Assembly: GCA_041666485.1 (NCBI GenBank)
Contig: JBAYGW010000006.1
Location: 1 to 52,301, forward strand
DNA from: Patescibacteria group bacterium
Lineage (GTDB): Bacteria; Patescibacteriota; Patescibacteriia; UM-FILTER-42-10
Reading direction: 5' to 3'
Length of the DNA: 52,301 nucleotides
The notes under the pieces are model-generated. The model had not been told where the DNA came from and did not search any database. It saw only the letters and a list, made by a program, of their open reading frames with translations. The position numbers and the translations under genes are program-made. Of this stretch, positions 3,194 to 42,719 are shown in pieces (within the stretch, counting starts at the first letter, position 1; every line of letters starts with the position of its first letter).

Positions 3194-3196
3194 CCA

Positions 3197-24144: not shown

Positions 24145-24321
24145 ATGGAGCAATTACTAACCCTCAAGGAAGTAACGGAGATCCTGCGCGTTAGCGAAAG
24201 GACAGTTTATCGTTACATTGATTCGGGTGAGTTAAAAGCGATTAAGATCGGGCAGTGGCGTTTCAGCCAAGAAGATCTTAATCGTTTTATATTCAGTAAA
24301 AAAACGGAAGGCCATGTTTAA
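24145..24321 (+). CDS. Excisionase-family (MerR-like) helix-turn-helix DNA-binding protein, 58 aa; below the ORF-track length cutoff
   Basis: My translation is MEQLLTLKEVTEILRVSERTVYRYIDSGELKAIKIGQWRFSQEDLNRFIFSKKTEGHV. It matches the excisionase-type HTH pattern (LT.kE.A..L.VS..TvYr.i..G.l.a.kiG..wRf...dl..f). Its stop TAA (24319-24321) overlaps ATG 24314 of the giant gene. Confidence 0.75.
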   Translation: MEQLLTLKEVTEILRVSERTVYRYIDSGELKAIKIGQWRFSQEDLNRFIFSKKTEGHV

Positions 24322-30300: not shown

Positions 30301-33300
30301 GGCGGGAACTTTTACAACAGAAGCGGGAAATACTCTGGCCATGACCGGCACAACCAAGCAGATTACTTCTGCCAGTAATCCTTTGCTAAATTTTGAAATC
30401 AGTGCCGGTTCGGTCAATAATGTAGATGCAATGGATGTGAATGGTACATTTGCTATCACAGCTGGTACATTTGACCATCAACATGGCGGAGCGGATATTA
30501 ATATTTTTAGTAACTTTACTATAACAAGTGGCGGAAACTGGCTGCCCTCTGATACATATAAAATAATCTTAGACGGTGACCTGACACTTACTGACAGTAA
30601 CGCCACCCCCGAGGAATTATCATTATTACAAATCGGCGCATCTCCCGATACCACTGATCTTGCCAGTGATATTGCTACCAAAGGAGTAATTGTGCCAACC
30701 GGAGATATTTTCAACAGTCATGGCTATGATATGACTCTGGGAGTTTACGGGATATCAGTTACCGGAACACTTGATTTGACGGACGATGTGGAAACAGATG
30801 AAACCTTTATTACCACCGATGGAGATGTAACATTTGCTTCTGGTTCTGCGGTAACAATTGACCAGTCTACCTTTACTTTTGATGCCACATCCGGCACTGA
30901 TAATATTTTTAACGCCGGAATTCAGGATCTTTATAATTTGGTAATCAATGGAACAGTAATAGTGGAAGTGGAGGATGCCATTGATGTTAACGGTAATCTG
31001 ACAATTACCAGCGGCACATTGGATGTTGTGTCAGGCGAGAATAATGTAATCACTGTAGCCGGCGCGTGGGATAACGATGCAACCTTTGAAGCGCGTAGCG
31101 GAACCGTTACATTTGACGCTACTTCTGGAACCTACAGTATTGACGCCGACGGCACCGGCACGGATGCATTTTATGATCTGACTTTCAACGACGGTGGCGG
31201 ATCGGCAGAATGGGATTTGGCAGGCGCACTTGATGTGAACCGTAATATTGCGATCACCGGCGGAACGGTAGATAATTCTTCTGGCAATTATAATATTAAC
31301 ATCGGGGGAGGTTGGGACAATGACGACAGTTATGTACGCGGCACAGAAACAACCACTTTTGACGGAGCTTCCGGTACATACAGTATTGATACCGACAGCC
31401 CATTAGAAGATGATTTCTACAATGTTGTTATTAATGACAGTGCCGGTTCTCTTCATTTAGATCTAACTTCACAACCGGCACAGATTGACGGCAATTTAAC
31501 TATTACAGACGGAATTCTTGATCTGAATAATTATGACATGTATGTGGTGGGTAACGTTTCTAAAACTGGTGGAAATCTTGAGGTGAACCAAGCAAGTGAT
31601 TTGTTAGCAATTACCGGTAATTTTACCGTATCCGGTAATGATGGATCTGCCATTTTCTCTGACGGTACGATTAGTATTGATGGGAATACTACCATATCCA
31701 ATGATGACACTTTTGGTTGTGTAGCCGGTGGTTGGCCGACATTTAGAATGCAGGGTACAACAAACTCCACCATTTCGGTCTCAGGAGCAAATAACGATTT
31801 TGGGACAGGTACAGAATTTTGTGCATTTACATTACAAAAAACAACGAATTACACTCTTCAACAACTCACAAATATCACCGGCACGACCTTTTATTTTGAA
31901 AATGGTATATGGGATGTAAATGGACAGACCGCTAATTTTTCTGACAAAGTACAAATCAATACGGACGGCGTGTTGAAAATGGCTACCGGCACTTTTACAG
32001 TTGGTCGCAACGGATCGGACGGTGACAACCGTGCTCCTCTTTCATTTTTTATCAGCTCATCAGAAGATATCACGGGAGGAACAATTGAAATATACGGTAC
32101 GGCCAATGCAACTTATGGCTCGCTATTTATAATGGATGGTTCAAACTTTACCCCCACCGGCGGAACAGTAAAGTTTTTAGGGACTGATGCCACAAACACC
32201 CTCTACATTACCGAAGTAAACACGGCGGATTTTAACTTTTACAATCTGGAAATTGGTGATGGTACCAATGCTAAAACATTGAACGTCAATACAGCCGCAA
32301 CCATCCCGATAGACATGAACGGCAATCTGACTATTAATGCCAATGGTACTTTTGATACAAATAGTGAGGCGGTTAAGGTGGCGGGTAATTGGACAAACAA
32401 CGGAACATTCACAGCCGATAGCGGTACAGTAACACTGGACGGTGCGGCTACTCAAACCATATCCGGCACATTAACCGGCAGTTCCGCTTTTTATGATTTA
32501 ACAATTACCAATACTTCCGGCAGCTACACCGGATGCGACACTGCTTTCACGCCGGGCGTTGATTTCGCCGCATCGGCAACATCAACAAACAACTATACGA
32601 TTAATACCGGCAATGTAAAAGTTGAATATAACTCTGGATCAACTTATACCTTCAACAATATCAACTGGGCAGGAACACTGGGTAACGAAATAGTATTCAG
32701 AAATTCCAATCTTACCTCAGGTACTTGGTTATTGAACGTATCAGGAATTCAGTCCGCTGTTTCATATGTAAGTGTTGGCCGTTCTGACGCATCAAGCGGT
32801 GATCAGATTATTGCGTCAGATGGCACCAACACAGATTGTAGTAATAATATTGACTGGTTGTTTTCTTCTTTTTCAGTCTCCGGCAGTATTTATAATGAAA
32901 ATACTACAATTGCCCTTACTGAATGTGACAGTTCTACAAACATGGTCAATCTTAGAGTTCAGGGTACCACCTACCAGACTTCCTGCGATGATACCACTGG
33001 TGCTTATTCTTTTTCTGGGATAACCGGACCGACTACAAACGAATCTATGATCATCTGGATTGAAGGCCAGACTCCGGACGGCGCAGCGGTAAATAAATAT
33101 TCCGGTTCTGGAAACGTTACCGGGATAATTGTGGAGGCAAATGCCCTGACAATAAATAACGATTCAGCTGTCGCAGTCTCCAATACCGACCTGGACACCT
33201 ATGATAGTCGTGAAGATAATGACATCAATTACACGGTTGATTCCGGCAGTCTTATTGTTGAAGACGGTCACCGAATAGTAATTAAAACCAATGAGAATTT

Positions 33301-36300
33301 TACACCGGGAGCGTCAGTTACCACATCCCCCGCTTCTACACAATCCGCCATGGACGGCGATATTTATCTGGCAACCGGAGCAACTTTGAATATGGCAACT
33401 AACGCTCTTTCTGTAGGCGGTGATTTTACGACCGCCGGGACAGTCACAATCACTATGGATTCCGGACAAGCTACCACTTTCACTGGGACCACTACCGGAT
33501 TTGGAATTGAAGCGGAAGATGCTTTTGATAGTGTAACCTTTAACGGTTCTGGAGGCGGATGGACGTTTGATGCCGGCGCTACTCTTAACCATCACTTAAC
33601 AGTAACTGCCGGAACCATTACCCTGGGAGGCACAACTTCTGTCGGTGGTAATCTGACTATCAATGGTGGCACTCTGGATGTAAGCAGTGGCAATAATTAC
33701 GCCCTTTCAGTAGCCGGATCATGGGATATTGATGCTGGAGTCTTTCAAGCTCAGTCCGGCAATGTAACTTTCAATGCGGGATCCGGCACTCTGAGCATTG
33801 ATCCTGACGGTACCAGCACTGACTCTTTCTATAATCTGACTTTCAATGACGGCGGCGGATCGGCAGAGTGGGACTTAACCGGAATTTTAGATGTAAATCA
33901 CAATCTCGCAATCACTGGCGGTACAGTTGATAACTCCGGAGGCAATTATGCTGTTACCCTTGGTGGCGGGTGGGATAACGACGATACCTATACTTGCGGT
34001 ACTGAAACTGTAACCTTTGACGCAGCTTCCGGCACACTACCGATAGACGCGGACGGAACCGGAACTGATTCCTTCTATAACACAATATTTAATGACGGGG
34101 GTGGTTCCGCCACTTGGCAACTGACTACGTTAATGGATGTTAATAATGATTTTACAATCACCGGCGGAACTTTTGATTATAACGGCAGCAACACTCTCAC
34201 AGTGGCCGGTGATTTTACCAACAATGATACAGTAACCGAATCCACCGGTACCCTAAAAATGGATGGCACTTCAGGAACTCAATATATTAATAATACTGAA
34301 GCAACTTCGGCAGAAGCGTCTAATTTATATAATTTGGAAATTGACGATTCCGCTGGAAGCGCCATTGTAAAATCTTATTACCCATTAGACACGAACAATA
34401 ATTTTACTATAACCGGCGGCACGCTGGATATGGAAGAAGCACAAACATATTTTCTCACCTCTTCCACCACTGATGCGGTTGCAAACAACATGCGTATTAA
34501 AACCACTGACCCAGCCGGTACTGCAAACAGCACTTCTTCCTGCAATGATAATGAAACTAATCAGTCAAACCTTGTATGTATTTTAAATCCTGGGTCTGCA
34601 AATATTACATGGGGGGCGCTACCTTCAACAATCCAACAAAAAGGTTACATGCTTAGCGACAATCAGGGTATTACCGGTACATATGCCACGGGTGATTGGA
34701 CGGTAAAGGCAACAGCAACAGAAGTAACTGGTCAGTTTTCCTACCCTACCTATAGGTTAGAAGCACGGCTCTGGAAGGCTTCAACCGCACTCGGTAGTGC
34801 AACTGCCATTACCGACTGGGGGTATGCAGATGTCACAGCAAATATAACCAGCGACGTAACGATTACGTTTAGTGGTGTATCACAAACAACACTCACAAAT
34901 GAGGTGCTTTATGTTGAGTTTGCCGCCTATTTCCGTGGCGACGCTATGGACTTGGGTTCAGGCGGGCCAACATCTATGACACTTACAGTTAACGAAGGTG
35001 GCACAAAACAACAAATTACTACCCCCGCCTTTTCCCCGCAAATCAATGTCGGTGGTAATTGGGACAACAATGATATCTTTTATCATAATAAAGGTACAGT
35101 AGTTTTTGACCCCGCTACTGGGACAAAGACAATTGATTCCACCGGAGCGTCTGAAGATGATTTCTATAACCTCACAATCAACGATGGTGCTGGTACCGGT
35201 ACCGTTCAGTTAACCGGATCTAACTTACAAGTAGATAATGATTTCACCTTAACCGACGGGACGTTTGATTTGAATAATTTGCAGACATTGATCACAAACA
35301 GTTTTACCAAGACCGGCGGCAACATAAACATGGATCAGTCCGGTGATCATATCAACGTAGACGGTAACTTTACCGTGTCCGGTGACGGCGGATCATCTGC
35401 TCTTCAAGACGGATCAATTGTTGTGGCTGGCGATGTTGCAATTTCCAATAATAATGTTTTCCAGATGGGCAACAATACCGGCTATCCTGTTTTCTCTATG
35501 GATGGTGCTGTCAGCAAAACCATTACCGTTTCTGGCACTGGCAATTATTTTGGCACGACAGGGGCAACCGGCGAATTTGATATTGATAAAGCTGGAGGAA
35601 CAGTTGTAAACGCGGGATCTGATCTAGCTATGTGGAATCTGGTTCAAAACACCGGTGGTTTAACCGTTGCCGGTAACTATGTTATTAATGCTGACGGACA
35701 ATATGTCGGACTAGGCGGAGTACTGACAATGAGTAACGGAACGCTTAGTGTCGGCAGTGACAATCTTGCTCCATCTTCCTATGCTAACTTTTATGTTGGT
35801 AGCGGGTGGACTGAAGCAATCTCCGCCGGTACGATTGAAGTTGACGGCGCCGGTCATACCACCAATGAAGCAGCTTATTTTGCCAACGGTTCGGCGTTTA
35901 CACCCACCGGCGGAACATTTAAACTAATCGGTAATGACAATTCCACGATTCAAATTGATGAATTGGATACTGCCGATTTCAATTTCTATGACTTGACTAT
36001 CGGTGATAGTTCAAATACAAAAACAGTTGATATAGATGCGGCATCAACCGATATCTTTGAAGTAACTGATAACATTTTAATCAATCCTAATGCCACTTTT
36101 GATACTAATAGCGAGCCGGTCTATATCGGGGGAAATTGGAACAATAACGGTACCTTCACCGCGGACAGCGGAATAGTAACTTTCAATGCTAGTGATACTA
36201 ATAATACTATTGATGCGGGTACCGGTTCATTCTTTGATATTATCTTTGAAGGGGGTGATGGATCAGGAACTTGGTACTTTCAAAATGATAATGCCACAAT

Positions 36301-38512
36301 TACTCATACACTTGACGTAAACACTAGCGATATAGTTTCAATCAATACCGGAATAAACGTTACCTGGACCGGTTCATCTTTTATTCTCGGTGGAACAATT
36401 AACGGATTAGGAACATTAGTAATTGATTCCACTACCATCATCCCAACTACCGGGACTCTATCTTGTATTGTAAGATTTGACGCAACCAATGGTAACACTA
36501 GTGTAATCCCGGAAAGAACATATTATACAATAGAACCATATAACAGTTCAGATGTGTCAGCCAGAACTATTGTACTTGGCACCGCCTCATCACAGGTTAT
36601 TACACTTTCCGGCTATATGTATGTGGTTGCTGACGGAACGCAGAATATTACTCTCAGTGGTACTAGTTATAATCCAACAATCATTGTTGCAAAAGCATTT
36701 GACTTTACTGGCACAGGTGATGGATCAGAGGTTGTATTATCCGGTACAAGCAGTTGGTCTGTTTCAGGCAATGTGGATTTTACCGGGGGCACTTATACAG
36801 CTTCAACCGGAAATACATTAAGAATGAATGGGCTTTTAAAAACCATCACTACGACTGGCAACACCTTGCAGAATTTTGAAGTATACGGAAATGATACTAC
36901 TTCAGTCGGAGCGCTAGACGTTAATGGCACATTCACTGTATCCAGTGGAGCATTTGTACAGGCCGCTGATGCTGATTTGAATGTTGCCGAGGACTTCACA
37001 TTGGCATTAGGCACAACATTCACAGCCGCTTCCGGTACGGGAAAGCTATATCTGGACGGTGATTTGACGCTTACTGACAATACCACATCCAAGCAAGACT
37101 TGGGGAATGTATATATCGGCACCTCTCCGGATACCACGGATCTTGCCAGTGATATTGCTACCAAAGGTATTACAATAAATTCCGGTGATGTGTTAAATAC
37201 CCATGGTTATGAAATGACGATCGGCGTTTATGGTCTGAACGTGATCGGAACTTTGGATATGACTGATGATGTAGAAACAGACGAGACCTTTGTAACTACG
37301 GACGGTGATGTAACATTCGGTGCCGCATCTTCCGTAACCGAGGATCAGTCAACAATCACGTTTGATGCGGCTTCCGGTACTGACAATATATTTAATCCGG
37401 GCGTTCAAAATATAAATAACTTGGTAATCAACGGCGCCAGTTTAACAGTTGAAGTGGAAGACCCGATCATTGTAAATAATGATTTAACAATAACCAGCGG
37501 GATCTTGGATGTCGTATCCGGTGAAAACAACCAAATCAGTTTAGGCGGTGACTGGACCAACAACGGTACTTTCACAGCACAAAATGGAACAGTACTATTG
37601 AACGGTTCCTCTACACAAATTCTATCAGGTACCATGACAACCACATCCCAGTTTTATAATCTGACTGTCAGCAACAGTTCTGGCAGTTACTCCGGATGCG
37701 CGACTTCTTTCACGCCGGGAATTGATTTTGCCGCGGCTGCCACAATCGGCGGAACATACACAATAACCACCGGCGATGCCAAAGTAGAATATAATTCCGG
37801 ATCAGCTTATACGGCAAATAATATTAATTGGAACGGTGGAGCATATGGAGACGAAATAATTTTCCGTAATTCAGATCTTGTTTCAGGTACTTGGACATTA
37901 GATGTTTCCGGGACACAAACTGCCGTAAAATATGTTGATGTCGGTCGTTCAGACGCATCAAGTGGTGATACAATTGACGCTCGGCATATTTCTAATGTTG
38001 ACTGCAGTAACACAACCAATTGGGAATTTGATTCCATTACCCTTAGTATCTCTGATACTACTATCGGTTTTGGTGATCTGACCTCTGCTAACGCCCGCTG
38101 GGCAACCGGCGATGTCGCCGGATCCGACAGTAAGGTAGTTGCTCATACAATAACCGCCTATACCGCCGCTGATAACGGATATCTACTGACCTATAACGGT
38201 CCACTATTAACCAGCGGTTCGGATACAATTACTGCCGCCGCAATTACCAATGATGATGACGGCACGGCAGGAACAGAACAATTCGGATTAGGTATCACCA
38301 CAGCCGGTGACTGCACAATTAATAGCGATTATAATGCTAGCAGTCCCGCGGAGTATAAACTTGCAGCAAGCACAACAACAACCCTTTGTTCCGAAACTGT
38401 GCCTACAGCTTCCGAAGTAATCAGTGCCTATTATATCGCCAACATCAGCAGTGAGACCGAAGCGGGTAATTATTCTACGAATATAACTTATATTATGACC
38501 GCTACGTTCTAA
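24314..38512 (+). CDS. Giant (4732 aa) cell-surface repeat protein: N-terminal signal-anchor, non-repetitive ~970-aa head, nested beta-helix-like repeats, C-terminal ~160-aa domain shared with the three ~360-aa paralogues
   Basis: An uninterrupted 14.2-kb ORF in AT-rich DNA. TM LLAFVLIMLFASLTILIFANIAI. A recurring ~75-aa unit G.VDNSSGNYNINIGGGWDNDD.Y..GT.T.TFDA.SGT..ID.DGTG.D.FYDLTFNDGGG. The C-terminus ISDTTIGFGDLTSANARWATGD...EAGNYSTNITYIMTATF aligns with the C-termini of 39435, 40560 and 46195. Confidence 0.85.
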   Translation: MFNRKNKLELVHQIVRGSKRRGVPSLLAFVLIMLFASLTILIFANIAIQNHHSESAGLVYKTTVAGDVIIRTSPSDCTGWLNPDLAKNIDLLGSSSTKEFNTNNSASYTNTPYENLGDVAEFELANAKLVCGGFQLAENIPPEAVDIVGTISLSFATETFDNNEDIVVFSYSMDGGKNWKAVDSFALLEQMNNQTREGYWSYIIPDLNELKKSEDFLVRVQYVSEPNKQPATAYVDGIALDIQYFEEKRDSGNFGEIQVTNKEGINSQTTAVATIEVEKNSTFGLLGVPTKKREVKSVQLIHPDGSVAEPETKIEEKENGTTKQKEYSIQPVNFDKPGVYKATFAIEENGVVEEKTEEFAWGVLSLNSTKSVYNPGETANLSISAYNGNGDFVCDADLSIQVTNPKGKVATLSTAEGSILKSPQCGPNIVTNTADYITSIEDLSVGQYQLNITGVIDGTTYQAAESFSVEKDIPFDITRIGPSRIYPIAEYEMFLEVIPKDDYFGTVTELVPDLIQVSDINENGLLSTTDENNNYINWQVDWKKGKAYTLSYKFESPTLVDYHFKLGPASFVNYNNPDKKADPLAETTSWQETRPWLIESDSMADKEHNSYIDGDTNRVEIINEKQLRYRAENSEIKDRFFPNNNFFQGPDNSWHIVETQLDIISMGDSRVSFNVNGKPLILTPAVVIGGVTQPIDTLSADYRAQLQMRLEVQKIDQGNKWSHIFFRLPEIEAIEFLVEPDDHTITNANPTSLLVDDQLLLNFSDLVASGFTVSVTPSKIRVTNLKDGWNTLDPTDTFYSSTGADGQITYGNSIYTATTNGTTSLIEDNQLIVPSSETRSFLSFDTSSISDTATVSASDVNTYAESFAKSKTLNTTYSIQYYSGQNGIGATLDSSSADWNSCTTSHGTLNWSNSVGWKSQSLTSPASAVNLTGDTDFKLVEDFTVSTGEYKRVVMRQTEYADTTSDPYLDVTYTAGINVSGNAYNENSTAALTECDGSTNMINLRVQSTTYQTSCNDTTGAFTFTGVATPSSSEAMIIWIDGQTPDGSTVNQYSGTGDVTGMTVQENSVTVHNDSGASYVSNSDLNTFDNGDDDDINYTVSTSDLMIEDGHRLLIKTNEYLDAGGIITTSPAATQSAMDGDIYLESGAAISIGAYALSIGGDYTVESSAGIIFTTGQITTFTGTTTGFSIDTPLNFDSLVFNGTGGGWTFDGDATMTNDLTVTAGTIILGAASYVADDVIINGGTLDVSSGNNYSLSVMGSWDIDGGNFEARSGNVTFNSYFGSETIDSDGTGTDSFYDLTFNDVSGHWDLAGILDVNRNLTITGGTVDNSSGNYNINVGGSWDNDDEYICGTGTVTFDATSGTLSIDADGTGADAFYDLTFNDGGGTATWQLTGLLDVNRNLSIAGGTVDNSAGNYNINIGGGYDNDDGYTRGTETITFDATSGTNLIDGDGTGNQDLYNVTFNDGGGTATWQLTTNFDWIYGTTTLTDGVFDLNNYYWYSYGNFNKTGGSLQMNQASDNLVFQGTFTISGAEGADVFTYGTIQVQDDFTISGDNTFVFGGAGSPRVVFTGTKDPTISISGANNVIGSSTYSAYFDIAFTNSTNTLTFLTAVNAGHCRPQEGKFVINGQNLRCDGVFYAYAGSGIDMASGSLIIGRESYAGGSYSPFWYEAGATENISGGTIQVYGSEQATYGTAYFADGSNFTPTGGTFQFMGTATASIYVAEVDAADFNFWDLTIGNGSTKTVEINTGSVSAIDVDGDLTITAGATLDSNGEPFEVAGNWDNNGTYTHDSNAVTFDGSDTDNTIEAGSSAFYDVIFQGLDGAGLWTFQTNDATVTRTIDIDTSDEVVIATARTITWTGSAFTLDGTISGAGKLTIDSSTTIPTTGTLSSIVRFDSTAGNTAVMPTRTYGGNVEIYNNSAVAARIVTPDIGTHTVSGSLIVQAANTQNVTFAGATNDPTMNITGDLDFGTSGGGVQTITTGANKWTVAGNVDLTAGTFTTEAGNTLAMTGTTKQITSASNPLLNFEISAGSVNNVDAMDVNGTFAITAGTFDHQHGGADINIFSNFTITSGGNWLPSDTYKIILDGDLTLTDSNATPEELSLLQIGASPDTTDLASDIATKGVIVPTGDIFNSHGYDMTLGVYGISVTGTLDLTDDVETDETFITTDGDVTFASGSAVTIDQSTFTFDATSGTDNIFNAGIQDLYNLVINGTVIVEVEDAIDVNGNLTITSGTLDVVSGENNVITVAGAWDNDATFEARSGTVTFDATSGTYSIDADGTGTDAFYDLTFNDGGGSAEWDLAGALDVNRNIAITGGTVDNSSGNYNINIGGGWDNDDSYVRGTETTTFDGASGTYSIDTDSPLEDDFYNVVINDSAGSLHLDLTSQPAQIDGNLTITDGILDLNNYDMYVVGNVSKTGGNLEVNQASDLLAITGNFTVSGNDGSAIFSDGTISIDGNTTISNDDTFGCVAGGWPTFRMQGTTNSTISVSGANNDFGTGTEFCAFTLQKTTNYTLQQLTNITGTTFYFENGIWDVNGQTANFSDKVQINTDGVLKMATGTFTVGRNGSDGDNRAPLSFFISSSEDITGGTIEIYGTANATYGSLFIMDGSNFTPTGGTVKFLGTDATNTLYITEVNTADFNFYNLEIGDGTNAKTLNVNTAATIPIDMNGNLTINANGTFDTNSEAVKVAGNWTNNGTFTADSGTVTLDGAATQTISGTLTGSSAFYDLTITNTSGSYTGCDTAFTPGVDFAASATSTNNYTINTGNVKVEYNSGSTYTFNNINWAGTLGNEIVFRNSNLTSGTWLLNVSGIQSAVSYVSVGRSDASSGDQIIASDGTNTDCSNNIDWLFSSFSVSGSIYNENTTIALTECDSSTNMVNLRVQGTTYQTSCDDTTGAYSFSGITGPTTNESMIIWIEGQTPDGAAVNKYSGSGNVTGIIVEANALTINNDSAVAVSNTDLDTYDSREDNDINYTVDSGSLIVEDGHRIVIKTNENFTPGASVTTSPASTQSAMDGDIYLATGATLNMATNALSVGGDFTTAGTVTITMDSGQATTFTGTTTGFGIEAEDAFDSVTFNGSGGGWTFDAGATLNHHLTVTAGTITLGGTTSVGGNLTINGGTLDVSSGNNYALSVAGSWDIDAGVFQAQSGNVTFNAGSGTLSIDPDGTSTDSFYNLTFNDGGGSAEWDLTGILDVNHNLAITGGTVDNSGGNYAVTLGGGWDNDDTYTCGTETVTFDAASGTLPIDADGTGTDSFYNTIFNDGGGSATWQLTTLMDVNNDFTITGGTFDYNGSNTLTVAGDFTNNDTVTESTGTLKMDGTSGTQYINNTEATSAEASNLYNLEIDDSAGSAIVKSYYPLDTNNNFTITGGTLDMEEAQTYFLTSSTTDAVANNMRIKTTDPAGTANSTSSCNDNETNQSNLVCILNPGSANITWGALPSTIQQKGYMLSDNQGITGTYATGDWTVKATATEVTGQFSYPTYRLEARLWKASTALGSATAITDWGYADVTANITSDVTITFSGVSQTTLTNEVLYVEFAAYFRGDAMDLGSGGPTSMTLTVNEGGTKQQITTPAFSPQINVGGNWDNNDIFYHNKGTVVFDPATGTKTIDSTGASEDDFYNLTINDGAGTGTVQLTGSNLQVDNDFTLTDGTFDLNNLQTLITNSFTKTGGNINMDQSGDHINVDGNFTVSGDGGSSALQDGSIVVAGDVAISNNNVFQMGNNTGYPVFSMDGAVSKTITVSGTGNYFGTTGATGEFDIDKAGGTVVNAGSDLAMWNLVQNTGGLTVAGNYVINADGQYVGLGGVLTMSNGTLSVGSDNLAPSSYANFYVGSGWTEAISAGTIEVDGAGHTTNEAAYFANGSAFTPTGGTFKLIGNDNSTIQIDELDTADFNFYDLTIGDSSNTKTVDIDAASTDIFEVTDNILINPNATFDTNSEPVYIGGNWNNNGTFTADSGIVTFNASDTNNTIDAGTGSFFDIIFEGGDGSGTWYFQNDNATITHTLDVNTSDIVSINTGINVTWTGSSFILGGTINGLGTLVIDSTTIIPTTGTLSCIVRFDATNGNTSVIPERTYYTIEPYNSSDVSARTIVLGTASSQVITLSGYMYVVADGTQNITLSGTSYNPTIIVAKAFDFTGTGDGSEVVLSGTSSWSVSGNVDFTGGTYTASTGNTLRMNGLLKTITTTGNTLQNFEVYGNDTTSVGALDVNGTFTVSSGAFVQAADADLNVAEDFTLALGTTFTAASGTGKLYLDGDLTLTDNTTSKQDLGNVYIGTSPDTTDLASDIATKGITINSGDVLNTHGYEMTIGVYGLNVIGTLDMTDDVETDETFVTTDGDVTFGAASSVTEDQSTITFDAASGTDNIFNPGVQNINNLVINGASLTVEVEDPIIVNNDLTITSGILDVVSGENNQISLGGDWTNNGTFTAQNGTVLLNGSSTQILSGTMTTTSQFYNLTVSNSSGSYSGCATSFTPGIDFAAAATIGGTYTITTGDAKVEYNSGSAYTANNINWNGGAYGDEIIFRNSDLVSGTWTLDVSGTQTAVKYVDVGRSDASSGDTIDARHISNVDCSNTTNWEFDSITLSISDTTIGFGDLTSANARWATGDVAGSDSKVVAHTITAYTAADNGYLLTYNGPLLTSGSDTITAAAITNDDDGTAGTEQFGLGITTAGDCTINSDYNASSPAEYKLAASTTTTLCSETVPTASEVISAYYIANISSETEAGNYSTNITYIMTATF
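27240..38030 (+). repeat. Two diverged super-repeats (~5.2-5.6 kb each) inside the giant gene, each with nested sub-repeats
   Basis: Unit 1 starts ~27240 (NVSGNAYNENSTAALTECDGSTNMINLRVQSTTYQTSC). Unit 2 starts ~32870 (SVSGSIYNENTTIALTECDSSTNMVNLRVQGTTYQTSC). Matching landmarks include SPA.TQSAMDGDIYL (27.7/33.3 kb), DTTDLASDIATKG...DVETDETF.TTDGDVTF (30.65/37.13 kb) and the terminal FTPG.DFAA...VGRSDASSGD blocks (32.5/37.7 kb). Unit 2 carries a unique insert of ~0.85 kb at ~34.2-35.05 kb. Confidence 0.8.
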
Positions 38513-38640
38513 AAAAGCTTGAGCGACTGAAGTTAGAGTGACATTTATTTTTCACAGCCACTTCAGTGGCGTAAGAATCTGATTTAGAAATGTGATCTGT
38601 TAAAAACCACCAGACTACCTGTCTTGAGCCGAGTCGAAAG

Positions 38641-38692
38641 AAAGTCGGTAAGAAATTATTTGCCTTCTTCATAGTCATTTTCGTGGCGCAAG
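38641..38692 (+). repeat. REP-like repeat, left copy
   Basis: AAAGTCGGTAAGAAATTATTTGCCTTCTTCATAGTCATTTTCGTGGCGCAAG is about 80% identical to the right copy at 39264-39315. Confidence 0.7.
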
Positions 38693-38713
38693 CATTTAAT
38701 CAATACATAATCC

Positions 38714-39238: not shown

Positions 39239-39263
39239 AATTTGCTAAAAAGCATACCCGACT

Positions 39264-39315
39264 AAAGTCGGTAAGAAAATATTTACCTTTTTCACAGCCA
39301 CTTCAGTGGCGTAAG
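39264..39315 (+). repeat. REP-like repeat, right copy
   Basis: TAAAGTCGGTAAGAAAATATTTACCTTTTTCACAGCCACTTCAGTGGCGTAAG, preceded by the small hairpin CCGACtaaaGTCGG. Confidence 0.7.
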
Positions 39316-39434: not shown

Positions 39435-40538
39435 TTGAATATTAACCCTTTGAACAACATGTTTAAAAAAATAGGTGTTTACCTGCTAATATTTGCTTTA
39501 GTTTTTTTATACTACCCGATTAAACCGGCGAATGCTGCTAATTTAACTAAAATTACTGATACGCTTTCTACCTTAACCTCAAACGCGGTCGCCAACCATA
39601 CTATTACATTTGTAACACCTACAGGGGTTGAAGCAAACGCTGATACGATTACAATTGATTTAACCGATTTCACCATCGGTTCTGTTGATTATACAGATAT
39701 TGATCTCGCGGTAGATGGTGATGCCAACTGTAACGGCGCCTGGACGGATAAAACACTCGCAGCGGCAAACAACACTGGAGTATGGGGAGCAACTATCACT
39801 TCATCAGTACTCACGCTTGACGCACCAACTGATGCTGCAGCCGGCGAAATTACTGCCGGAGTTTGTGTGCAGGTAGAAATTGGCCTTAATGCCACATCCG
39901 GTGTTGCAGGAAATGCACAATTAACAAACCCAAACGATGCAAACACGCATGTTTTTGAAATCGCAGGAGTATTTGGTGATACCGGGCAATTCGCATTAGA
40001 TTTTGTCGCGGATGACAGCGTCAATGTAACTGCCACTGTTGATCCTTCCATTACATTCGCAATTTCAGATACTGCTATCGGATTTGGTGATCTTGTTTCT
40101 GCCAATGCCCGCTTTGCCACATCAGATGCTACCGGATCCGATACGGATTCTACCGCCGCTCACACCTTATCAATAGGAACGAATGCAACTGACGGATATA
40201 TTATCACCTACAATGGAGCAACACTTACAAGTGGTGGTGACACTATTTCAGTAGCGGCAATATCTAATGATGAAAACGGAACGCCGGGCAGTGAACAGTT
40301 TGCCATGGGATTTTCAACAAACGGTAACACAACAATTCCGGCAGGATATGATCACAATGCAACAGCGGGTAGTCGCGACTGGACTTTTGTCGCCAGTACT
40401 CTAACTACCATCGCTTCAGAAACAGCACCGACCGCTACCGAGACAATTAGCGCATTTTATCTGGCGAATATCGCGGCTGATACCGAAGCGGGAAGTTATT
40501 CCACCGATATCACCTACATCGCAACAGCAACCTTTTAA
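39435..40538 (+). CDS. Secreted two-domain surface/fibre subunit candidate, paralogue 1 (367 aa)
   Basis: Signal peptide ...YPIKPANA|ANLTK. The mature N-terminus ANLTKITDTLSTLTSNAVANHTITFVTPTG is conserved. The C-terminal domain (from ~40041) is shared with the giant protein and ends ...EAGSYSTDITYIATATF. Start is TTG 39435 (AAGGTG 8 nt upstream), alternatively ATG 39459. Confidence 0.8.
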   Translation: MNINPLNNMFKKIGVYLLIFALVFLYYPIKPANAANLTKITDTLSTLTSNAVANHTITFVTPTGVEANADTITIDLTDFTIGSVDYTDIDLAVDGDANCNGAWTDKTLAAANNTGVWGATITSSVLTLDAPTDAAAGEITAGVCVQVEIGLNATSGVAGNAQLTNPNDANTHVFEIAGVFGDTGQFALDFVADDSVNVTATVDPSITFAISDTAIGFGDLVSANARFATSDATGSDTDSTAAHTLSIGTNATDGYIITYNGATLTSGGDTISVAAISNDENGTPGSEQFAMGFSTNGNTTIPAGYDHNATAGSRDWTFVASTLTTIASETAPTATETISAFYLANIAADTEAGSYSTDITYIATATF

Positions 40539-40559: not shown

Positions 40560-41642
40560 ATGAAGTCAAATATTGTGAAAAAAACTAGTATTTCACTGCT
40601 TATTTTTGCTTTGACTTTTATGTATTTCCCGGCCAGACCGGCTTATGCTGCAAATCTGACCAAAGTTACAGATACACTCTCCACATTAACTCAGAATGTG
40701 GTTGCAAATCACACTATCACCTTTGTCACACCAACAGGTGTGCAGGCGACTACAGACACAATTACGATTGATTTTACAGATTTTACCGTTGGTACGGTTG
40801 AATTCGGCGATATTGATATTGCAGAAGATAACGACGGTAACTGCGATGGCGCATGGACAGATAAAACAGTTGCGGCCACAGCCGGCGTAGGTGCGTGGGG
40901 CGCAGCGTTTACAGGCTCAACATTAACACTTACTCCACCAACCAATGCGGCATCCGGAGAAATTGATGCGGGATTCTGCGTACAAGTAGAAATCGGTTTG
41001 AATGCAGCTGGTGGTAACGCCCAATTGACAAACCCAAATGATACAAATAATCATGTCGTAGAAATCGCTGGAGTTTTCGGTGATGCCGGACAGTTTGCAC
41101 TGGATTTTGTCGCGGATGACAGCGTCAATGTAACTGCCACTGTTGATCCTTCCATTACATTCGCAATTTCAGATACCGCAATCGGTTTTGGCGACCTGAC
41201 ATCCGCTAATGCGCGATATGCAACCGGTGACGCTGCCGGCGCTGATGCAGATTCTGCTGCAGCTCACACAATATCAGTTGGCACCAATGCAACTGACGGA
41301 TATATTGTTACCTATAGCGGTGCTACTTTAACCAGCAGTGGAGATACAATCACAGTAGCCGCGATAACCGATGACGCAAACGGAACTCCGGGCACCGAAC
41401 AGTTTGCCATGGGATTTTCAACCGATGGTAATACCACAATCCCGGCCGGATATGACCACAATGCAACTGCGGGTAGTCGTGATTGGACATTTGTTGCCAG
41501 TACACTTACAACCATTGCTTCAGAAACTATCCCGACCGCAACTGAAACTATCAGTGCATTTTATCTGGCGAATATCGCGGCTGATACCGAAGCGGGAAGT
41601 TATTCAACCGATATTACATATATCGCAACTGCAACCTTTTAG
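40560..41642 (+). CDS. Secreted two-domain surface/fibre subunit candidate, paralogue 2 (360 aa)
   Basis: Signal peptide ...ARPAYA|ANLTK. Collinear with paralogue 1, including perfectly identical 73-nt and 50-nt tracts. Confidence 0.85.
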   Translation: MKSNIVKKTSISLLIFALTFMYFPARPAYAANLTKVTDTLSTLTQNVVANHTITFVTPTGVQATTDTITIDFTDFTVGTVEFGDIDIAEDNDGNCDGAWTDKTVAATAGVGAWGAAFTGSTLTLTPPTNAASGEIDAGFCVQVEIGLNAAGGNAQLTNPNDTNNHVVEIAGVFGDAGQFALDFVADDSVNVTATVDPSITFAISDTAIGFGDLTSANARYATGDAAGADADSAAAHTISVGTNATDGYIVTYSGATLTSSGDTITVAAITDDANGTPGTEQFAMGFSTDGNTTIPAGYDHNATAGSRDWTFVASTLTTIASETIPTATETISAFYLANIAADTEAGSYSTDITYIATATF

Positions 41643-41718
41643 TAATTCCAATAATTTGGTATACTGATATCAATAGTTGAAAGGTTATTAATACCATATT
41701 TATAAAAACAAAAGGGTG

Positions 41719-42711
41719 ATGTCAAAAAACATTACAAAGCTGATATTTGGTGCGCTACTGATTGTAGGGGGCTTTTTTGTTATACCAAAAGCGCAAGCAC
41801 TTACTCTTATCCCCCCCTCATTTGAAACATCAGTTGATCCGGGCGTGACTACGGAAACCACCGTTAAGCTGTACAATGAAACTCAGGAAACACTCAACCT
41901 TTATCCGGAAGTCGTCAGCTTTACGGCTGAAGGAGAAACCGGCAACCCGACATTTGACTTCAATGCCCCAGCTGAAGGAGTCGCTTCATGGTTTACTTTG
42001 CCCGAGGGACCGATTACACTCACCGCCGGCGAAAGAAAAGTAATTGATGTCAAAATTACCCCTCCCGTTGATGCCGAGCCAGGTGGTCACTATGCAACTG
42101 TTTTTTTCGGAACGTCATCACCCAATCTGGAAGACCCGGGCAGTCTAGCGCTATCCACAAAACTCGGTTCTCTGTTTTTACTCAGAGTGTTTGGCGATAT
42201 TAAAGAGTCGGGCAGTATCAGTGAATTTGGCTTAAACGGAAATAATACTCTTTCCAGACTGCCGGCAACTTTCTTTACCCGCTTTCAAAATGATGGCAAC
42301 ATTCATCTAAGACCTACCGGCACTATTAAAATTACCAATATGCTAGGCGGTGATACTGCTGCTTTGGAGTTCAACCCCAAGAAAAGTTGCACCCTCCCCG
42401 ACACCATCAGAAAATATGAAACGATTTGGGAAAAAGATCAGATCAGAGAAGTTACCGGCAATTTTTGGAATAAATTTTGGACAGAGTTTTCCAATGAAAA
42501 AAATAATTTTGCCATCGGCAGGTATAAGGCGACAATTTCATTGGACGCGGGTAATCTAGTTCAAGATACTGCAACTATTACTTTCTGGATTATGCCCTGG
42601 AGAGTAATATCAGTCGCTTTGATTATACTCGCTTTCGTAATTGTCTTACTGATATTTTTGATTAAGAAATACAATCAGTGGATCATCAACAAAGCGCGGA
42701 AAAGGAAATAA
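41719..42711 (+). CDS. Signal peptide + Ig-like/beta-sandwich ectodomain + C-terminal TM anchor protein, paralogue A (DUF916/DUF3324-like architecture)
   Basis: Signal FGALLIVGGFFVIPKAQA. LTLIPPSFETSVDPGVTTETTVKLYNETQETLNLYPEV is the pattern of a chaperone/Ig-like first strand. GGHYATVFFGT is present. The C-terminal TM VISVALIILAFVIVLLIFLI is followed by KKYNQWIINKARKRK. I prefer ATG 41719 over GTG 41716. Confidence 0.75.
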   Translation: MSKNITKLIFGALLIVGGFFVIPKAQALTLIPPSFETSVDPGVTTETTVKLYNETQETLNLYPEVVSFTAEGETGNPTFDFNAPAEGVASWFTLPEGPITLTAGERKVIDVKITPPVDAEPGGHYATVFFGTSSPNLEDPGSLALSTKLGSLFLLRVFGDIKESGSISEFGLNGNNTLSRLPATFFTRFQNDGNIHLRPTGTIKITNMLGGDTAALEFNPKKSCTLPDTIRKYETIWEKDQIREVTGNFWNKFWTEFSNEKNNFAIGRYKATISLDAGNLVQDTATITFWIMPWRVISVALIILAFVIVLLIFLIKKYNQWIINKARKRK

Positions 42712-42719
42712 TAAGAATC

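What the first reader, a model, noticed from the sequence alone, without database searches (positions are those of the whole stretch)
38028..38512. C-terminal ~160-aa module of the giant protein is the same domain as the C-terminal half of the three ~360-aa secreted paralogues, all ending ...TATF
Seen in sequence. These segments align along their whole length:
- giant protein: SISDTTIGFGDLTSANARWATGD..AHTITAYTAADNGYLLTYNGPLLTSGSDTITAAAITNDDDGTAGTEQFGLG...EAGNYSTNITYIMTATF;
- paralogue 1 (40041-40535): AISDTAIGFGDLVSANARFATSD..AHTLSIGTNATDGYIITYNGATLTSGGDTISVAAISNDENGTPGSEQFAMG...EAGSYSTDITYIATATF;
- the equivalent parts of 41145-41639 and 46789-47283.

Established knowledge. A C-terminus of the form G-x-Y-x-(T/S)-x-(I/L)-T-(Y/F/W)-x..., ending in an aromatic residue, is typical of the last strand of beta-sandwich pilin/fimbrial subunits, SCPU-type subunits and WxL domains.

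Inference. The shared domain is the common assembly or wall-attachment handle. The giant protein may therefore be displayed on, or cap, a structure made of the small paralogues.
Basis: partly seen in the sequence, partly recalled or inferred. Interest (0 to 1): 0.75.

Follow-up and report, generated by a model that had tools for sequence, protein, structure and literature searches.

The report
Giant tip adhesin of a Pam pilus
The 160-residue tail shared by a 4,732-residue surface protein and three small neighbours is the strand-accepting pilin domain of the recently described "Pam" pilus of ultrasmall CPR bacteria. Because the giant protein can accept a strand but apparently cannot donate one, it most likely sits at the pilus tip as the host-binding head.

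Summary
The last 160 residues of the giant ORF (window 38030-38509; the stated start is 2 nt out of frame) are 59-61% identical to the C-terminal halves of the three ~360-aa paralogues. There are exactly four copies in the window.

The domain is not generic. All four copies pass the curated cutoff of NCBIfam NF058581, "Pam pilus system pilin subunit". This is the donor-strand-accepting C-terminal domain (CTD) of a CPR pilus solved by cryo-EM in a 2026 preprint.

The paralogues carry the conserved donor linker DDSVN(V/I)T(A/S)TVDP in front of the CTD. The giant does not: its CTD directly follows a complete repeat module.

In 77 related loci the gene order is: linker-less "head + CTD" protein (316 to >3,494 aa), then 1-3 pilins, a chaperone with a transmembrane helix, a dockerin protein, and two cohesin membrane proteins.

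The chaperone model matches E. faecium WxLIP best, then chaperone-usher chaperones. The dockerin protein starts with a pilin-linker-like strand, which suggests a two-piece pilus anchor.

Verdict: a known system (Pam pilus) in a variant the preprint does not describe, with a giant tip adhesin and a dockerin-cohesin anchor. Tip placement is inferred, not shown.

The parts
24314..38512 (+). Giant protein (4732 aa). It has an N-terminal signal/anchor segment, a ~4,570-aa repeat-rich head with no Pfam or NCBIfam match, and a C-terminal Pam-type CTD. Proposed tip adhesin.
   Evidence: It is a single uninterrupted ORF. Internal repeats are shown. The N-terminal 900 aa are conserved in the corresponding proteins of 10 other loci. 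No Pfam or NCBIfam family is reported for the whole protein. The orthologue in L001 is 81% identical over 3,493 aa.
38030..38509 (+). C-terminal domain (CTD) of the giant protein, 160 aa: an acceptor domain with no preceding donor linker.
   Evidence: NF058581 scores 61.7 bits against a cutoff of 55. Identity to the paralogue CTDs is 59-61%. The preceding module (aa 4384-4572) has an internal copy at aa 2665-2850 (59% identical) that also ends ...DCSNNIDWLF and is followed by a different domain. The domain boundary is therefore ...NWEF|DSITLSISD, with no linker. The best linker-PSSM score in the giant is 9.6, against 35-40 in the pilins.
39435..40538 (+). Pilin paralogue 1 (367 aa): signal peptide, beta-sandwich NTD, donor linker DDSVNVTATVDP (40011-40046), CTD (40041-40535).
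   Evidence: NF058581 scores 70.1 bits. The AF2 model has pLDDT 93.4. The NTD strands span residues 38-189, residues 190-205 are not in a strand in the monomer, and the CTD strands span 206-365. The linker PSSM scores 39.6 at residue 193.
40560..41642 (+). Pilin paralogue 2 (360 aa): linker at 41115-41150, CTD at 41145-41639.
   Evidence: NF058581 scores 65.3 bits. The linker PSSM scores 39.6 at residue 186.
41716..42711 (+). Chaperone 1 (331 aa): signal peptide, two Ig-like domains and a C-terminal transmembrane helix (PamC/D-like, WxLIP-like).
   Evidence: The AF2 model has pLDDT 92.3, with a helix at residues 295-330. Foldseek against the PDB ranks WxLIP 9i1y/9i25 first (E 2e-11), followed by the chaperone-usher chaperones CfaA, CsuC, Caf1M and DraB. 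Pfam WxLIP_PGBD is hit weakly by 39 of 60 family members. Homologues are present in 71 of 77 loci, next to the pilin genes.
42678..43601 (+). Dockerin protein (307 aa from the GTG; a likelier ATG start is at 42720): signal peptide, N-terminal linker-like strand SLNVSVSAIV (42819-42848), Pro-rich spacer, two Ig-like domains, dockerin. Proposed donor-only terminator/adaptor.
   Evidence: Dockerin_1 scores 39.6 bits (cutoff 22.9), with Big_13 and Big_6 also hit. Of the dockerin homologues, 42 of 47 carry the pilin-linker core motif within 40 aa of the signal peptide. The background rate is 0.026 per 40 aa; chaperones show 0 of 90.
43603..44754 (+). Cohesin-like membrane protein 1 (383 aa): signal peptide, cohesin, Ig-like domain, C-terminal transmembrane helix. 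Proposed membrane anchor for the dockerin protein.
   Evidence: Cohesin scores 23.2 bits, just below the 24.1 cutoff. The NCBIfam OmpL47-type domain is hit. The gene is conserved downstream of the dockerin gene; cohesin homologues occur in 54 loci.
44729..46081 (+). Cohesin-like membrane protein 2 (450 aa): cohesin, Big_13, C-terminal transmembrane helix.
   Evidence: Cohesin scores 24.2 bits (cutoff 24.1) and Big_13 scores 38.5 bits. Its position is conserved across loci.
46195..47286 (+). Pilin paralogue 3 (363 aa): linker DDSVNITSTVDP (46762-46797), CTD at 46789-47283.
   Evidence: NF058581 scores 72.3 bits. The linker PSSM scores 35.4 at residue 190.
47331..48344 (+). Chaperone 2 (337 aa), a paralogue of chaperone 1.
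   Evidence: It is 67% identical to chaperone 1 in alignment A5. The same pilin-chaperone pair is present in the orthologous locus L001.

Best explanation
The shared ~160-aa module is the C-terminal domain (CTD) of Pam-type pilins. This is the truncated Ig-like, open beta-barrel domain of a CPR-specific pilus that polymerises by donor-strand exchange.

Proposed roles of the parts:
- Shaft: the three ~360-aa paralogues are shaft pilins. Each has a signal peptide, a beta-sandwich NTD, the conserved linker DDxVxVTATVD (the donated strand), and the CTD (the acceptor).
- Tip: the giant protein has the acceptor CTD but no linker. It can be bound by the first pilin's linker but cannot insert into another subunit. 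It is therefore expected to sit at the distal tip, as PamT is proposed to do. Architecturally it resembles FimH or PapG: a receptor-binding head fused to a pilin domain. Its 4,570-aa repeat-rich head would be the host- or surface-binding part.
- Chaperones: the two 331/337-aa two-Ig-domain proteins with a C-terminal transmembrane helix would hold the CTDs before strand exchange at the membrane.
- Base: the dockerin protein, whose mature N-terminus resembles the pilin linker, is proposed to plug the last pilin's groove. Its dockerin would tie the filament to the two cohesin-bearing membrane proteins.

Shown here: domain identity and family membership, presence or absence of the linker, conserved gene order, the chaperone fold, and the N-terminal motif of the dockerin protein.

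Inferred: strand insertion in this particular system, tip position of the giant, adhesive function of the head, and dockerin-cohesin anchoring.
For: Family membership:
- All four CTDs pass the curated cutoff of NF058581 CPR_Pam_pilin_C: 61.7-72.3 bits against 55.
- The cryo-EM preprint shows that the CTD accepts the inter-domain linker strand of the neighbouring subunit. It proposes that the linker-less, CTD-only PamT is the tip, that PamC/D are membrane-anchored PapD-like chaperones, and that PamR anchors the filament through an N-terminal strand.

Linker present in the pilins, absent in the giant:
- The linker PSSM scores 35-40 in the three pilins and at most 9.6 anywhere in the giant.
- The giant's CTD abuts a complete repeat module.
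- In the AF2 pilin monomer (pLDDT 93.4) the linker is not in a strand.
- Across 59 pilins, the linker and CTD are more conserved than the NTD: 0.60 and 0.58 against 0.44.

Related loci:
- Across the 77 loci, 91 CTD proteins have the linker (288-492 aa, median 372). 53 lack it (316 to >3,494 aa).
- The order is always linker-less gene first: TP in 36 loci, TPP in 6, TPPP in 1, and never PT.
- The chaperone-dockerin-cohesin genes follow.
- The exhaustive search finds 2,052 clusters. In the best 150 the CTD is always terminal, and roughly 50 of them are 700 aa or longer.

Accessory proteins:
- The chaperone model (pLDDT 92.3) matches WxLIP and chaperone-usher chaperones.
- The linker-like motif is found in 42 of 47 dockerin proteins just after the signal peptide, against a background of 0.026 per 40 aa.

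Divergence:
- Against the orthologous locus L001, the head (81%) and the dockerin protein (71.5%) diverge faster than the pilins and chaperones (92-95%). This fits exposed, host-facing or partner-specific parts.
Against: - There is no structural or experimental evidence for this locus. No multimer prediction could be run, so strand insertion of a pilin linker into the giant's CTD is untested.
- Foldseek with the full-length pilin returned only generic two-Ig adhesins at low TM-scores (about 0.2). The Pam structures 25PZ and 25QA were not in the library. The 'open groove' is therefore inherited from family membership and was not seen here.
- The window's CTDs match the PamT equivalog only weakly (31-36 bits against a cutoff of 240).
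- The locus lacks a one-piece PamR and the ATP-synthase neighbourhood reported for pamA loci. It is a divergent branch of the family.
- The chaperone's best structural match (WxLIP bound to a long WxL protein, 9i25) is also compatible with the giant being held permanently on the membrane chaperone rather than on a filament.
- Cohesin assignments are borderline: 23.2 and 24.2 bits against a cutoff of 24.1.
Confidence: 0.68

Rival explanations
1. Chaperone-anchored display. The giant protein is not on a pilus. Its CTD stays complemented by a strand of the membrane-anchored chaperone (41716-42711 or 47331-48344). That protein then acts as its permanent membrane anchor, in the way WxLIP is proposed to hold WxL proteins on Firmicute surfaces.
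For: - The chaperone model's best PDB matches are E. faecium WxLIP, including the complex 'WxLIP bound to long WxL' (9i25).
- There is weak but consistent sequence similarity to WxLIP_PGBD.
- WxL clusters have the same cast: a small protein, a large protein with the shared domain at its C-terminus, and a two-Ig-domain protein with a transmembrane helix (plasmid loci).
- The window encodes two chaperones.
Against: - The CTD family is the one shown by cryo-EM to polymerise through the linker strand.
- This reading does not explain why the pilins conserve the linker while the head proteins lack it, why the linker-less gene always comes first, or why the dockerin protein carries a linker-like N-terminus.
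- The CTD is not detectably a WxL domain.
Confidence: 0.2
2. Non-polymerising wall- or envelope-binding handle. The CTD is a WxL-like domain that binds the cell wall non-covalently. The four proteins are independently displayed surface proteins that share an anchor.
For: - The C-terminal motif G-x-Y-x-T-x-(I/L)-T-Y-x-A resembles the distal WxL motif.
- hhalign aligns the last 21 columns with a WxL profile at a score of 20.8. Column-shuffled controls give 10.6 +/- 1.8, with a maximum of 15.4.
Against: - None of 60 family members hits Pfam WxL, and no global profile-profile alignment is found.
- All four copies belong to the Pam pilin CTD family, whose members form filaments.
- Wall binding would not require the domain to end at the last residue in 146 of 146 cases together with a dedicated PapD-like chaperone.
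Confidence: 0.07
3. Generic Ig-like or carbohydrate-binding module, shared by chance of domain shuffling and with no common assembly role.
For: Foldseek with the full-length pilin returns many unrelated Ig-fold adhesins.
Against: - The domain never occurs internally. It is always at the extreme C-terminus.
- It is found in the same operon context in 77 loci.
- It has no Pfam CBM or Ig match.
Confidence: 0.02

Closest known systems
Pam pilus of Candidatus Mycosynbacter amalyticus (PamA/B/E pilins, PamT tip, PamC/D chaperones, PamR anchor; bioRxiv 10.64898/2026.03.03.709456; NCBIfam NF058581 and NF058579)
   Same: - The CTD family is the same, above the curated cutoff.
- The pilins have two domains with a conserved inter-domain linker.
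- There is a linker-less CTD protein.
- The chaperones have two Ig-like domains and a C-terminal transmembrane helix.
- All parts have Sec signal peptides, and there is no usher.
- The hosts are CPR/Patescibacteria.
   Different: - The linker-less member here is not a ~240-aa single-domain PamT. It is a 4,732-aa protein, and related loci carry heads of every size from ~150 to >3,300 aa.
- There is no one-piece PamR. Instead there is a dockerin protein with an N-terminal linker-like strand, plus two cohesin membrane proteins.
- There is no ATP-synthase neighbourhood.
- The match to the PamT equivalog is only weak.
- The related loci are labelled mostly Paceibacteria/Parcubacteria-type, as well as Saccharibacteria and Microgenomates.
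- The preprint text does not mention adhesin, giant, dockerin, cohesin or WxL.
Two-domain tip adhesins of chaperone-usher pili (FimH, PapG, CfaE, CsuE)
   Same: The logic is the same: an N-terminal receptor-binding part fused to a C-terminal pilin domain that accepts a donor strand but has none of its own, so the protein can only occupy the tip. In the Foldseek lists, chaperone-usher chaperones (CfaA, CsuC, Caf1M, DraB) follow WxLIP among the chaperone model's matches, and the CFA/I tip-adhesin complex 6k73 appears in both lists.
   Different: - There is no usher and no outer membrane, and the chaperones are membrane-anchored.
- The donor strand is an inter-domain linker rather than an N-terminal extension.
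- There is no significant sequence match to Pfam Fimbrial.
- The head is 20-30 times larger than a lectin domain.
WxL gene clusters of Firmicutes (small WxL, large WxL, WxLIP = DUF916 + DUF3324 + transmembrane helix; PMC10599100; PDB 9i1y, 9i25)
   Same: - The cast is the same: short proteins and a large protein share a C-terminal ~160-200-aa beta domain, next to a two-Ig-domain protein with a transmembrane helix.
- The window's chaperone matches WxLIP best, by fold and weakly by sequence.
- In both systems a strand from the Ig protein is predicted to insert into the shared domain (PMC10599100).
- The last-strand motif is similar: Y/W-x-L/A after G-x-Y-x-T.
   Different: - The CTD does not hit Pfam WxL, has Tyr where WxL has Trp, and shows no whole-domain profile similarity.
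- WxL domains are often followed by a tail, whereas the Pam CTD always ends the protein.
- WxL proteins are regarded as wall-bound rather than filament-forming.
- No linker or donor motif has been described for WxL proteins.
Cohesin-dockerin anchoring (cellulosome scaffoldins)
   Same: A dockerin-bearing secreted protein is encoded next to cohesin-bearing proteins. Dockerin_1 is above the Pfam cutoff.
   Different: - The setting is a pilus operon, not a glycoside-hydrolase system.
- The cohesin carriers are single-pass membrane proteins.
- The cohesin scores are borderline.
- The interaction itself is untested.

Membership tests
Pam pilus pilin C-terminal domain (NCBIfam NF058581 CPR_Pam_pilin_C) | HMM score at or above the curated cutoff (55 bits) | tested here: met
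   Paralogues score 70.1, 65.3 and 72.3 bits. The giant's isolated CTD scores 61.7 bits. Scanning the whole 4,732-aa protein reports nothing. HMMER's default filters also dropped it locally.
Pam pilus pilin C-terminal domain (NCBIfam NF058581 CPR_Pam_pilin_C) | The domain lies at the extreme C-terminus of the protein | tested here: met
   The profile end (148/148) aligns with the last residue. The domain is terminal in 146 of 146 complete copies in the loci and in 150 of 150 top representatives.
Pam pilus pilin C-terminal domain (NCBIfam NF058581 CPR_Pam_pilin_C) | Truncated Ig-like / open beta-barrel fold whose groove is filled by the neighbour's linker strand | not testable with these tools
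   Only monomer AF2 with DSSP output was available. No coordinates and no multimer prediction could be obtained, and 25PZ/25QA are absent from the Foldseek and sequence copies of the PDB.
Pam shaft pilins (PamA/B/E type) | Beta-sandwich NTD + single conserved linker strand + CTD | tested here: met
   Met for the three paralogues. The AF2 model shows NTD strands at 38-189, an unpaired stretch at 190-205 and the CTD at 206-365. The linker motif is conserved. Not met by the giant, which has no linker.
PamT tip pilin (NCBIfam NF058579, equivalog) | HMM score at or above the cutoff (240 bits); single-domain ~241-aa protein | tested here: not met
   The giant's CTD scores 32.1 bits and the paralogues 30.9-36.2 bits. 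The giant is 4,732 aa. It shares only the defining logic: a CTD without a linker.
Pam pilus system (operon level) | PapD-like chaperones with a C-terminal transmembrane helix encoded beside the pilins | tested here: met
   The AF2 model has two beta domains and a helix at 295-330. Foldseek matches WxLIP, CfaA, CsuC, Caf1M and DraB. Homologues are adjacent to the pilin genes in 71 of 77 loci.
Pam pilus system (operon level) | PamR: RbmA-like two-FnIII protein with an N-terminal strand and a C-terminal transmembrane helix | tested here: not met
   No such one-piece protein is present. The nearest analogue is the dockerin protein (N-terminal linker-like strand + two Ig-like domains + dockerin) together with the cohesin membrane proteins.
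WxL domain (Pfam PF13731) | Pfam HMM match; two Trp-x-Leu motifs | tested here: not met
   None of 60 family members hits PF13731, even at E up to 10. Tyr occupies the Trp positions.
WxL domain (Pfam PF13731) | Profile-profile similarity over the whole domain | tested here: inconclusive
   hhalign local aligns only the last 21 columns: score 20.8, P = 0.014, against shuffles of 10.6 +/- 1.8. The global alignment shows nothing.
WxLIP (Pfam PF06030 + PF11797 + transmembrane helix), for the 331/337-aa proteins | Pfam gathering score; two-Ig + transmembrane-helix architecture | tested here: inconclusive
   The architecture and the best fold match are met. PF06030 is below cutoff for the window protein (15.6 against 27.3 bits) but is hit by 39 of 60 relatives, best E 7.5e-7. 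The profile against the PDB ranks EfmWxLIP1 first at E = 0.054.
Chaperone-usher pilins (Pfam Fimbrial PF00419) / SCPU | HMM match; N-terminal extension as donor; usher gene in the operon | tested here: not met
   There is no significant Pfam hit: one member of 60 hits Fimbrial at E = 0.3, and there is no SCPU hit. No usher-like gene is present in the window.

The most novel reading that the evidence does not exclude
Pam-type pili of many Patescibacteria may be modular three-part machines.
- An exchangeable, fast-evolving tip 'head' of almost any size (up to 4.7 kaa here), fused to a linker-less acceptor domain.
- A shaft of linker-bearing pilins.
- A two-piece base, in which a donor-only dockerin protein plugs the last pilin and docks onto cohesin membrane proteins.

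The whole system would share ancestry with the WxL/WxLIP surface-protein clusters of Firmicutes. That would imply that WxL clusters are donor-strand (pilus-like or strand-complemented) assemblies of monoderm bacteria, rather than simple wall-binding proteins.
Probability: 0.3. Interest if true: 0.8.

Novelty: new variant of a known kind. Interest (0 to 1): 0.6.

Why it matters
CPR/Patescibacteria live attached to host cells, and how they recognise hosts is largely unknown. The Pam-pilus preprint states explicitly that it is not known how the pilins contact the host.

If the linker-less 'head + CTD' proteins are the pilus tips, several things follow:
- Host specificity would reside in a single, highly variable and often giant gene at the head of each pam-like operon. 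That gene is a concrete target for binding assays and for comparative genomics of host range.
- The giants are invisible to routine annotation. The whole 4,732-aa protein yields no NCBIfam or Pfam hit, although its isolated tail passes the curated cutoff. This class is therefore probably under-counted.
- The proposed dockerin-cohesin base would be a new way to tether a donor-strand pilus to a single membrane.
- The chaperone's resemblance to WxLIP offers a testable bridge between a CPR pilus and the poorly understood WxL clusters of enterococci, listeriae and lactobacilli.

Tried and rejected
1. Pfam scans of the pilins and of the giant's last 336 aa, and of the whole giant, gave nothing. Only NCBIfam recognised the domain.
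2. PDB sequence searches with the CTD profiles A1 and A2 gave no meaningful hit. The Pam entries 25PZ and 25QA are evidently not in the copies held.
3. Foldseek of the full-length pilin model gave only generic two-Ig adhesins at TM about 0.2, because of the two-domain query. It is not usable for or against the truncated-Ig claim.
4. The search for homologous proteins with the CTD profile returned only proteins of 285 aa or less and missed the window's own proteins. This is a candidate pre-filter artefact. The exhaustive search and the locus scan corrected the picture.
5. The search for related loci with the 60-sequence alignment failed for lack of conserved stretches. A closer 16-sequence alignment worked.
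6. A 12-residue linker PSSM did not pick up the dockerin N-termini, because they lack the flanking DD...DP. The 7-residue core motif did.
7. WxL homology of the CTD was tested with a purpose-built WxL alignment from enterococcal, lactococcal and lactobacillal plasmid loci. Only the last strand aligns, so membership was rejected. The system-level analogy is kept.
8. SCPU and classical Fimbrial membership were rejected for lack of any HMM support.
9. The ATP-synthase neighbourhood reported for pamA loci was looked for and is not present in this window.

Full report
**1. Observation**

The giant ORF runs from 24314 to 38512 (+, 4732 aa). Its last 160 residues are encoded by 38030-38509. The finding's start (38028) is two bases out of frame, but otherwise the description is accurate.

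The segment aligns without large gaps to 40041-40535, 41145-41639 and 46789-47283. The giant is 59-61% identical to the paralogues, 87 columns are invariant, and all four end in TATF.

A profile built from 60 family members finds exactly these four copies in a six-frame scan of the window (E 7.5e-64 to 3e-82). Nothing else scores below E = 1. The similarity is far beyond chance.

**2. What the domain is**

Pfam is silent. NCBIfam release 20 recognises the module as NF058581 'CPR_Pam_pilin_C, Pam pilus system pilin subunit'. The scores are 70.1, 65.3 and 72.3 bits for the paralogues and 61.7 bits for the giant's tail, against a curated cutoff of 55.

The model derives from a 2026 preprint (10.64898/2026.03.03.709456). 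Cryo-EM of filaments from the CPR parasite Ca. Mycosynbacter amalyticus showed the following.
- The filament forms because the open CTD of one subunit accommodates the linker strand of its neighbour.

The authors further propose three roles.
- PamT, a CTD-only protein without a linker, is the tip.
- PamC and PamD, PapD/FimC-like proteins with a C-terminal transmembrane helix, are chaperones.
- PamR, which has an N-terminal strand and a transmembrane helix, terminates and anchors the filament.

**3. The paralogues are shaft pilins**

AF2 with a 59-sequence alignment gives a confident model of paralogue 1 (pLDDT 93.4).
- A signal-peptide helix spans residues 6-25.
- A beta-rich NTD spans 38-189.
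- Residues 190-205 are not assigned to a strand in the monomer.
- A beta-rich CTD spans 206-365.

The stretch not assigned to a strand is DDSVNVTATVDP. This motif is conserved in all three paralogues (PSSM scores 35-40).

Of the 144 homologous CTD proteins classified in 77 related loci, 91 carry a linker of this type (consensus DDQVNVTATVDP).

Across 59 pilins, the linker and CTD are more conserved than the NTD (0.60 and 0.58 against 0.44). The last 25 residues are the most conserved of all (0.69). This matches the preprint's statement that the donated linker and its binding site are the most conserved parts.

**4. The giant protein has the acceptor but not the donor**

The residues in front of its CTD are ...HISNVDCSNTTNWEF|DSITLSISD. 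They form the end of a ~190-aa module (aa 4384-4572). That module has an internal copy at aa 2665-2850 (59% identical), which ends ...DCSNNIDWLF and is followed by a different domain.

The CTD is therefore fused directly to a complete module, with no linker in between. No convincing linker motif occurs anywhere in the 4,732 residues (best PSSM score 9.6).

The head has an N-terminal charged-then-hydrophobic export segment. It consists of long internal repeats and matches no Pfam or NCBIfam family.

**5. The arrangement is a conserved system, not a local oddity**

A scan of GTDB species representatives returned 77 loci. Most records are titled as Patescibacteria lineages: Kerfeld-, Uhr-, Falkow-, Nomura-, Taylor-, Harrison-, Doudnabacteria, Paceibacterota, Microgenomatus, Peribacteria and Saccharibacteria. 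A few automated labels name Proteobacteria for contigs carrying the identical operon. I treat those labels as doubtful.

In these loci:
- All 146 complete CTDs end at the protein's last residue, which is F (129) or Y (17).
- The 91 linker-bearing proteins are 288-492 aa long, with a median of 372.
- The 53 linker-less ones range from 316 to 3,247 aa when complete, and exceed 3,494 aa when cut by the locus edge.
- A linker-less gene is always the first CTD gene wherever one is present: TP in 36 loci, TPP in 6, TPPP in 1, and never PT.
- Downstream come a chaperone homologue (71 loci), a dockerin protein (56 loci) and cohesin membrane proteins (54 loci).

L001 is an orthologous locus with the same gene order as the window. 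Against it, the pilins and chaperones are 92-95% identical, the cohesin proteins 85-86%, the giant 81% and the dockerin protein 71.5%.

The exhaustive search of 1.84 billion representatives finds 2,052 clusters (376 at E of 1e-30 or better). In every one of the best 150 the match ends at the last residue. Lengths run from 183 to 3,431 aa, and roughly 50 are 700 aa or longer.

So 'variable head + terminal acceptor domain' is a common architecture. The window's 4,732-aa protein is longer than any example recovered here.

**6. The accessory proteins**

*Chaperone.* The model (pLDDT 92.3) has two beta domains and a long C-terminal helix.
- Its best PDB matches are WxLIP of Enterococcus faecium (9i1y, and 9i25 'bound to long WxL'; E about 2e-11).
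- Next come the chaperone-usher chaperones CfaA, CsuC, Caf1M and DraB.
- Sequence evidence agrees weakly. PF06030 WxLIP_PGBD is hit by 39 of 60 relatives (best E 7.5e-7). The family profile ranks EfmWxLIP1 first in the PDB (E = 0.054).

*Dockerin protein.* It has Dockerin_1 at 39.6 bits and two Ig-like domains. Its mature N-terminus reads DTVSGSLNVSVSAIVQAPPPPEEP.
- An equivalent V-x-V-(S/T)-A-x-V strand followed by a Pro- or Gly-rich spacer is present in 42 of 47 homologues, within 40 residues of the signal peptide.
- The background density is 0.026 per 40 aa. Chaperones show 0 of 90 and cohesin proteins 7 of 93.
- This is the architecture expected of a donor-only terminator. It is analogous to PamR, but with a dockerin in place of the transmembrane helix. 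The neighbouring cohesin membrane proteins would supply the membrane anchor.

This step is an inference. The preprint's text contains no mention of dockerin, cohesin, WxL, adhesin or giant.

**7. Mechanism proposed**

All parts are exported by Sec. The membrane-anchored chaperones cap the CTD grooves.

The giant protein (acceptor only) nucleates the fibre. Pilins then add at the base, each inserting its linker into the groove of the subunit before it. The dockerin protein's N-terminal strand fills the last groove, and its dockerin binds the cohesin membrane proteins.

There is a precedent for a domain that must end the polypeptide with a conserved aromatic residue. Classical chaperone-usher subunits have a conserved C-terminal motif, and the chaperone anchors their free carboxylate. 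That statement rests on my own knowledge of PapD-subunit complexes and was not tested here.

Confidence:
- The domain is the Pam CTD: about 0.95.
- The giant is a pilus-tip adhesin: about 0.65-0.7.
- The base is a dockerin-cohesin anchor: about 0.4-0.5.

**8. Rivals**

(a) The giant may stay bound to the membrane chaperone, in WxLIP-style display, rather than riding on a filament. This is the serious alternative (about 0.2). The data here cannot exclude it.

(b) The CTD may be a WxL-like wall-binding anchor. Several results argue against this.
- No Pfam WxL hit is found in 60 members.
- hhalign against a WxL alignment, built from plasmid WxL clusters and six database homologues, aligns only the last 21 columns. 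The score is 20.8 against 10.6 +/- 1.8 for column shuffles, and the global alignment shows nothing.

(c) A generic Ig or CBM module is excluded by the strict terminal position and the operon context.

**9. Comparison and novelty**

The domain and the pilus are already described (preprint and NCBIfam, 2026). Relative to that description, four things are new.
- The tip position is taken by giant and highly variable multi-domain proteins.
- A dockerin/cohesin pair stands in for PamR.
- The chaperone is closest to WxLIP. WxL clusters show the same three-part cast (PMC10599100; plasmid examples, including a 'pectate lyase-like adhesive' large protein).
- The family extends well beyond Saccharimonadia and Microgenomatia.

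I classify this as a new variant of a known kind.

**10. Technical caveat worth recording**

HMMER with default filters drops the giant protein. A local hmmsearch found it only with --max. NCBIfam reports nothing for the full-length protein, although the isolated tail passes the cutoff.

Counts of such proteins from standard pipelines, including, are therefore lower bounds.

Noticed in passing
window 38513-39327 (gene 38714-39238): A REP-associated tyrosine transposase gene (NCBIfam NF047646, E 2.3e-16, 60 bits, below the 80-bit cutoff) sits in an ~815-bp segment between the giant gene's stop and the first pilin gene. The orthologous locus L001 lacks this segment: L001 10483/10490 correspond to window 38512/39328. 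It is therefore a recent insertion inside the operon.
   Followed up: partly
window 24314-38512: Standard HMM annotation misses the Pam domain in the giant protein. NCBIfam and Pfam report no family for the full-length sequence, and hmmsearch needs --max to find it. The isolated 160-aa tail passes the curated cutoff. Giant CTD proteins are probably under-annotated in databases.
   Followed up: yes
window 42819-42848; dockerin homologues in L001-L076: The dockerin protein's mature N-terminus (SLNVSVSAIV, then a PPPP spacer) mimics the pilin donor linker. The motif is conserved in 42 of 47 homologues and is followed by Pro- or poly-Gly spacers.
   Followed up: yes
window 41716-42711 and 47331-48344: The pilus chaperones resemble Firmicute WxLIP (PDB 9i1y/9i25) more closely than PapD-type chaperones. 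WxL clusters on enterococcal, lactococcal and lactobacillal plasmids (L078-L084) have the same small/large/two-Ig-plus-TM cast. A possible evolutionary link is not mentioned in the Pam preprint.
   Followed up: partly
L014, L019, L030, L032-L035, L038, L040 (e.g. L014:11614-12744): Loci labelled Saccharibacteria carry a second, much more divergent CTD class (HMM scores of 32-48 bits, ending TYITTAQF/Y) in ~370-aa proteins. These genes are flanked by their own extra chaperone paralogues, up to three chaperones per locus. They may correspond to PamA/B/E-type diversity.
   Followed up: no
proteins P0014, P0016, P0055, P0062, P0118: Minimal pilins exist elsewhere. They consist of a signal peptide followed directly by the linker motif and the CTD (~190-215 aa), with no NTD. 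This is the classical 'N-terminal extension + pilin domain' layout of chaperone-usher subunits.
   Followed up: no
L002, L007, L022, L023, L025, L026, L029, L044, L058, L065, L068, L075: Contigs titled 'uncultured Gammaproteobacteria / Bdellovibrionales / Pseudomonadales' (TPA assemblies) carry the same tip-pilin-chaperone-dockerin-cohesin operon as the Patescibacteria MAGs. The organism labels are probably wrong, but this was not checked.
   Followed up: no
window 50692-51393 and 51415-51831: Two adjacent Cys-rich proteins match Pfam T4SS_pilin (28 and 37 bits, above the cutoff of 26.6). This is a second, unrelated pilin type at the edge of the window.
   Followed up: no
window 5411-7117: A 568-aa protein combines a Peptidase_M23 domain with FG-GAP repeats. 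It is a possible secreted cell-wall hydrolase, which is of interest for an epibiotic or parasitic lifestyle.
   Followed up: no
window 24314-38512 (aa 2152-2450, 2665-2856, 3110-3265, 4313-4572 and others): The giant head is built from large internal duplications. For example, aa 4313-4530 resemble aa 2152-2359 at 50% identity, and aa 4384-4578 resemble aa 2665-2856 at 59%. Its first 900 aa are conserved in the tip proteins of 10 other loci.
   Followed up: partly
window 42678-42711 and 44729-44754: Adjacent operon genes overlap as listed by the ORF finder (chaperone 1 with the dockerin protein, cohesin 1 with cohesin 2). For the dockerin protein, an in-frame ATG at 42720 just after the chaperone stop is the likelier start.
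   Followed up: no
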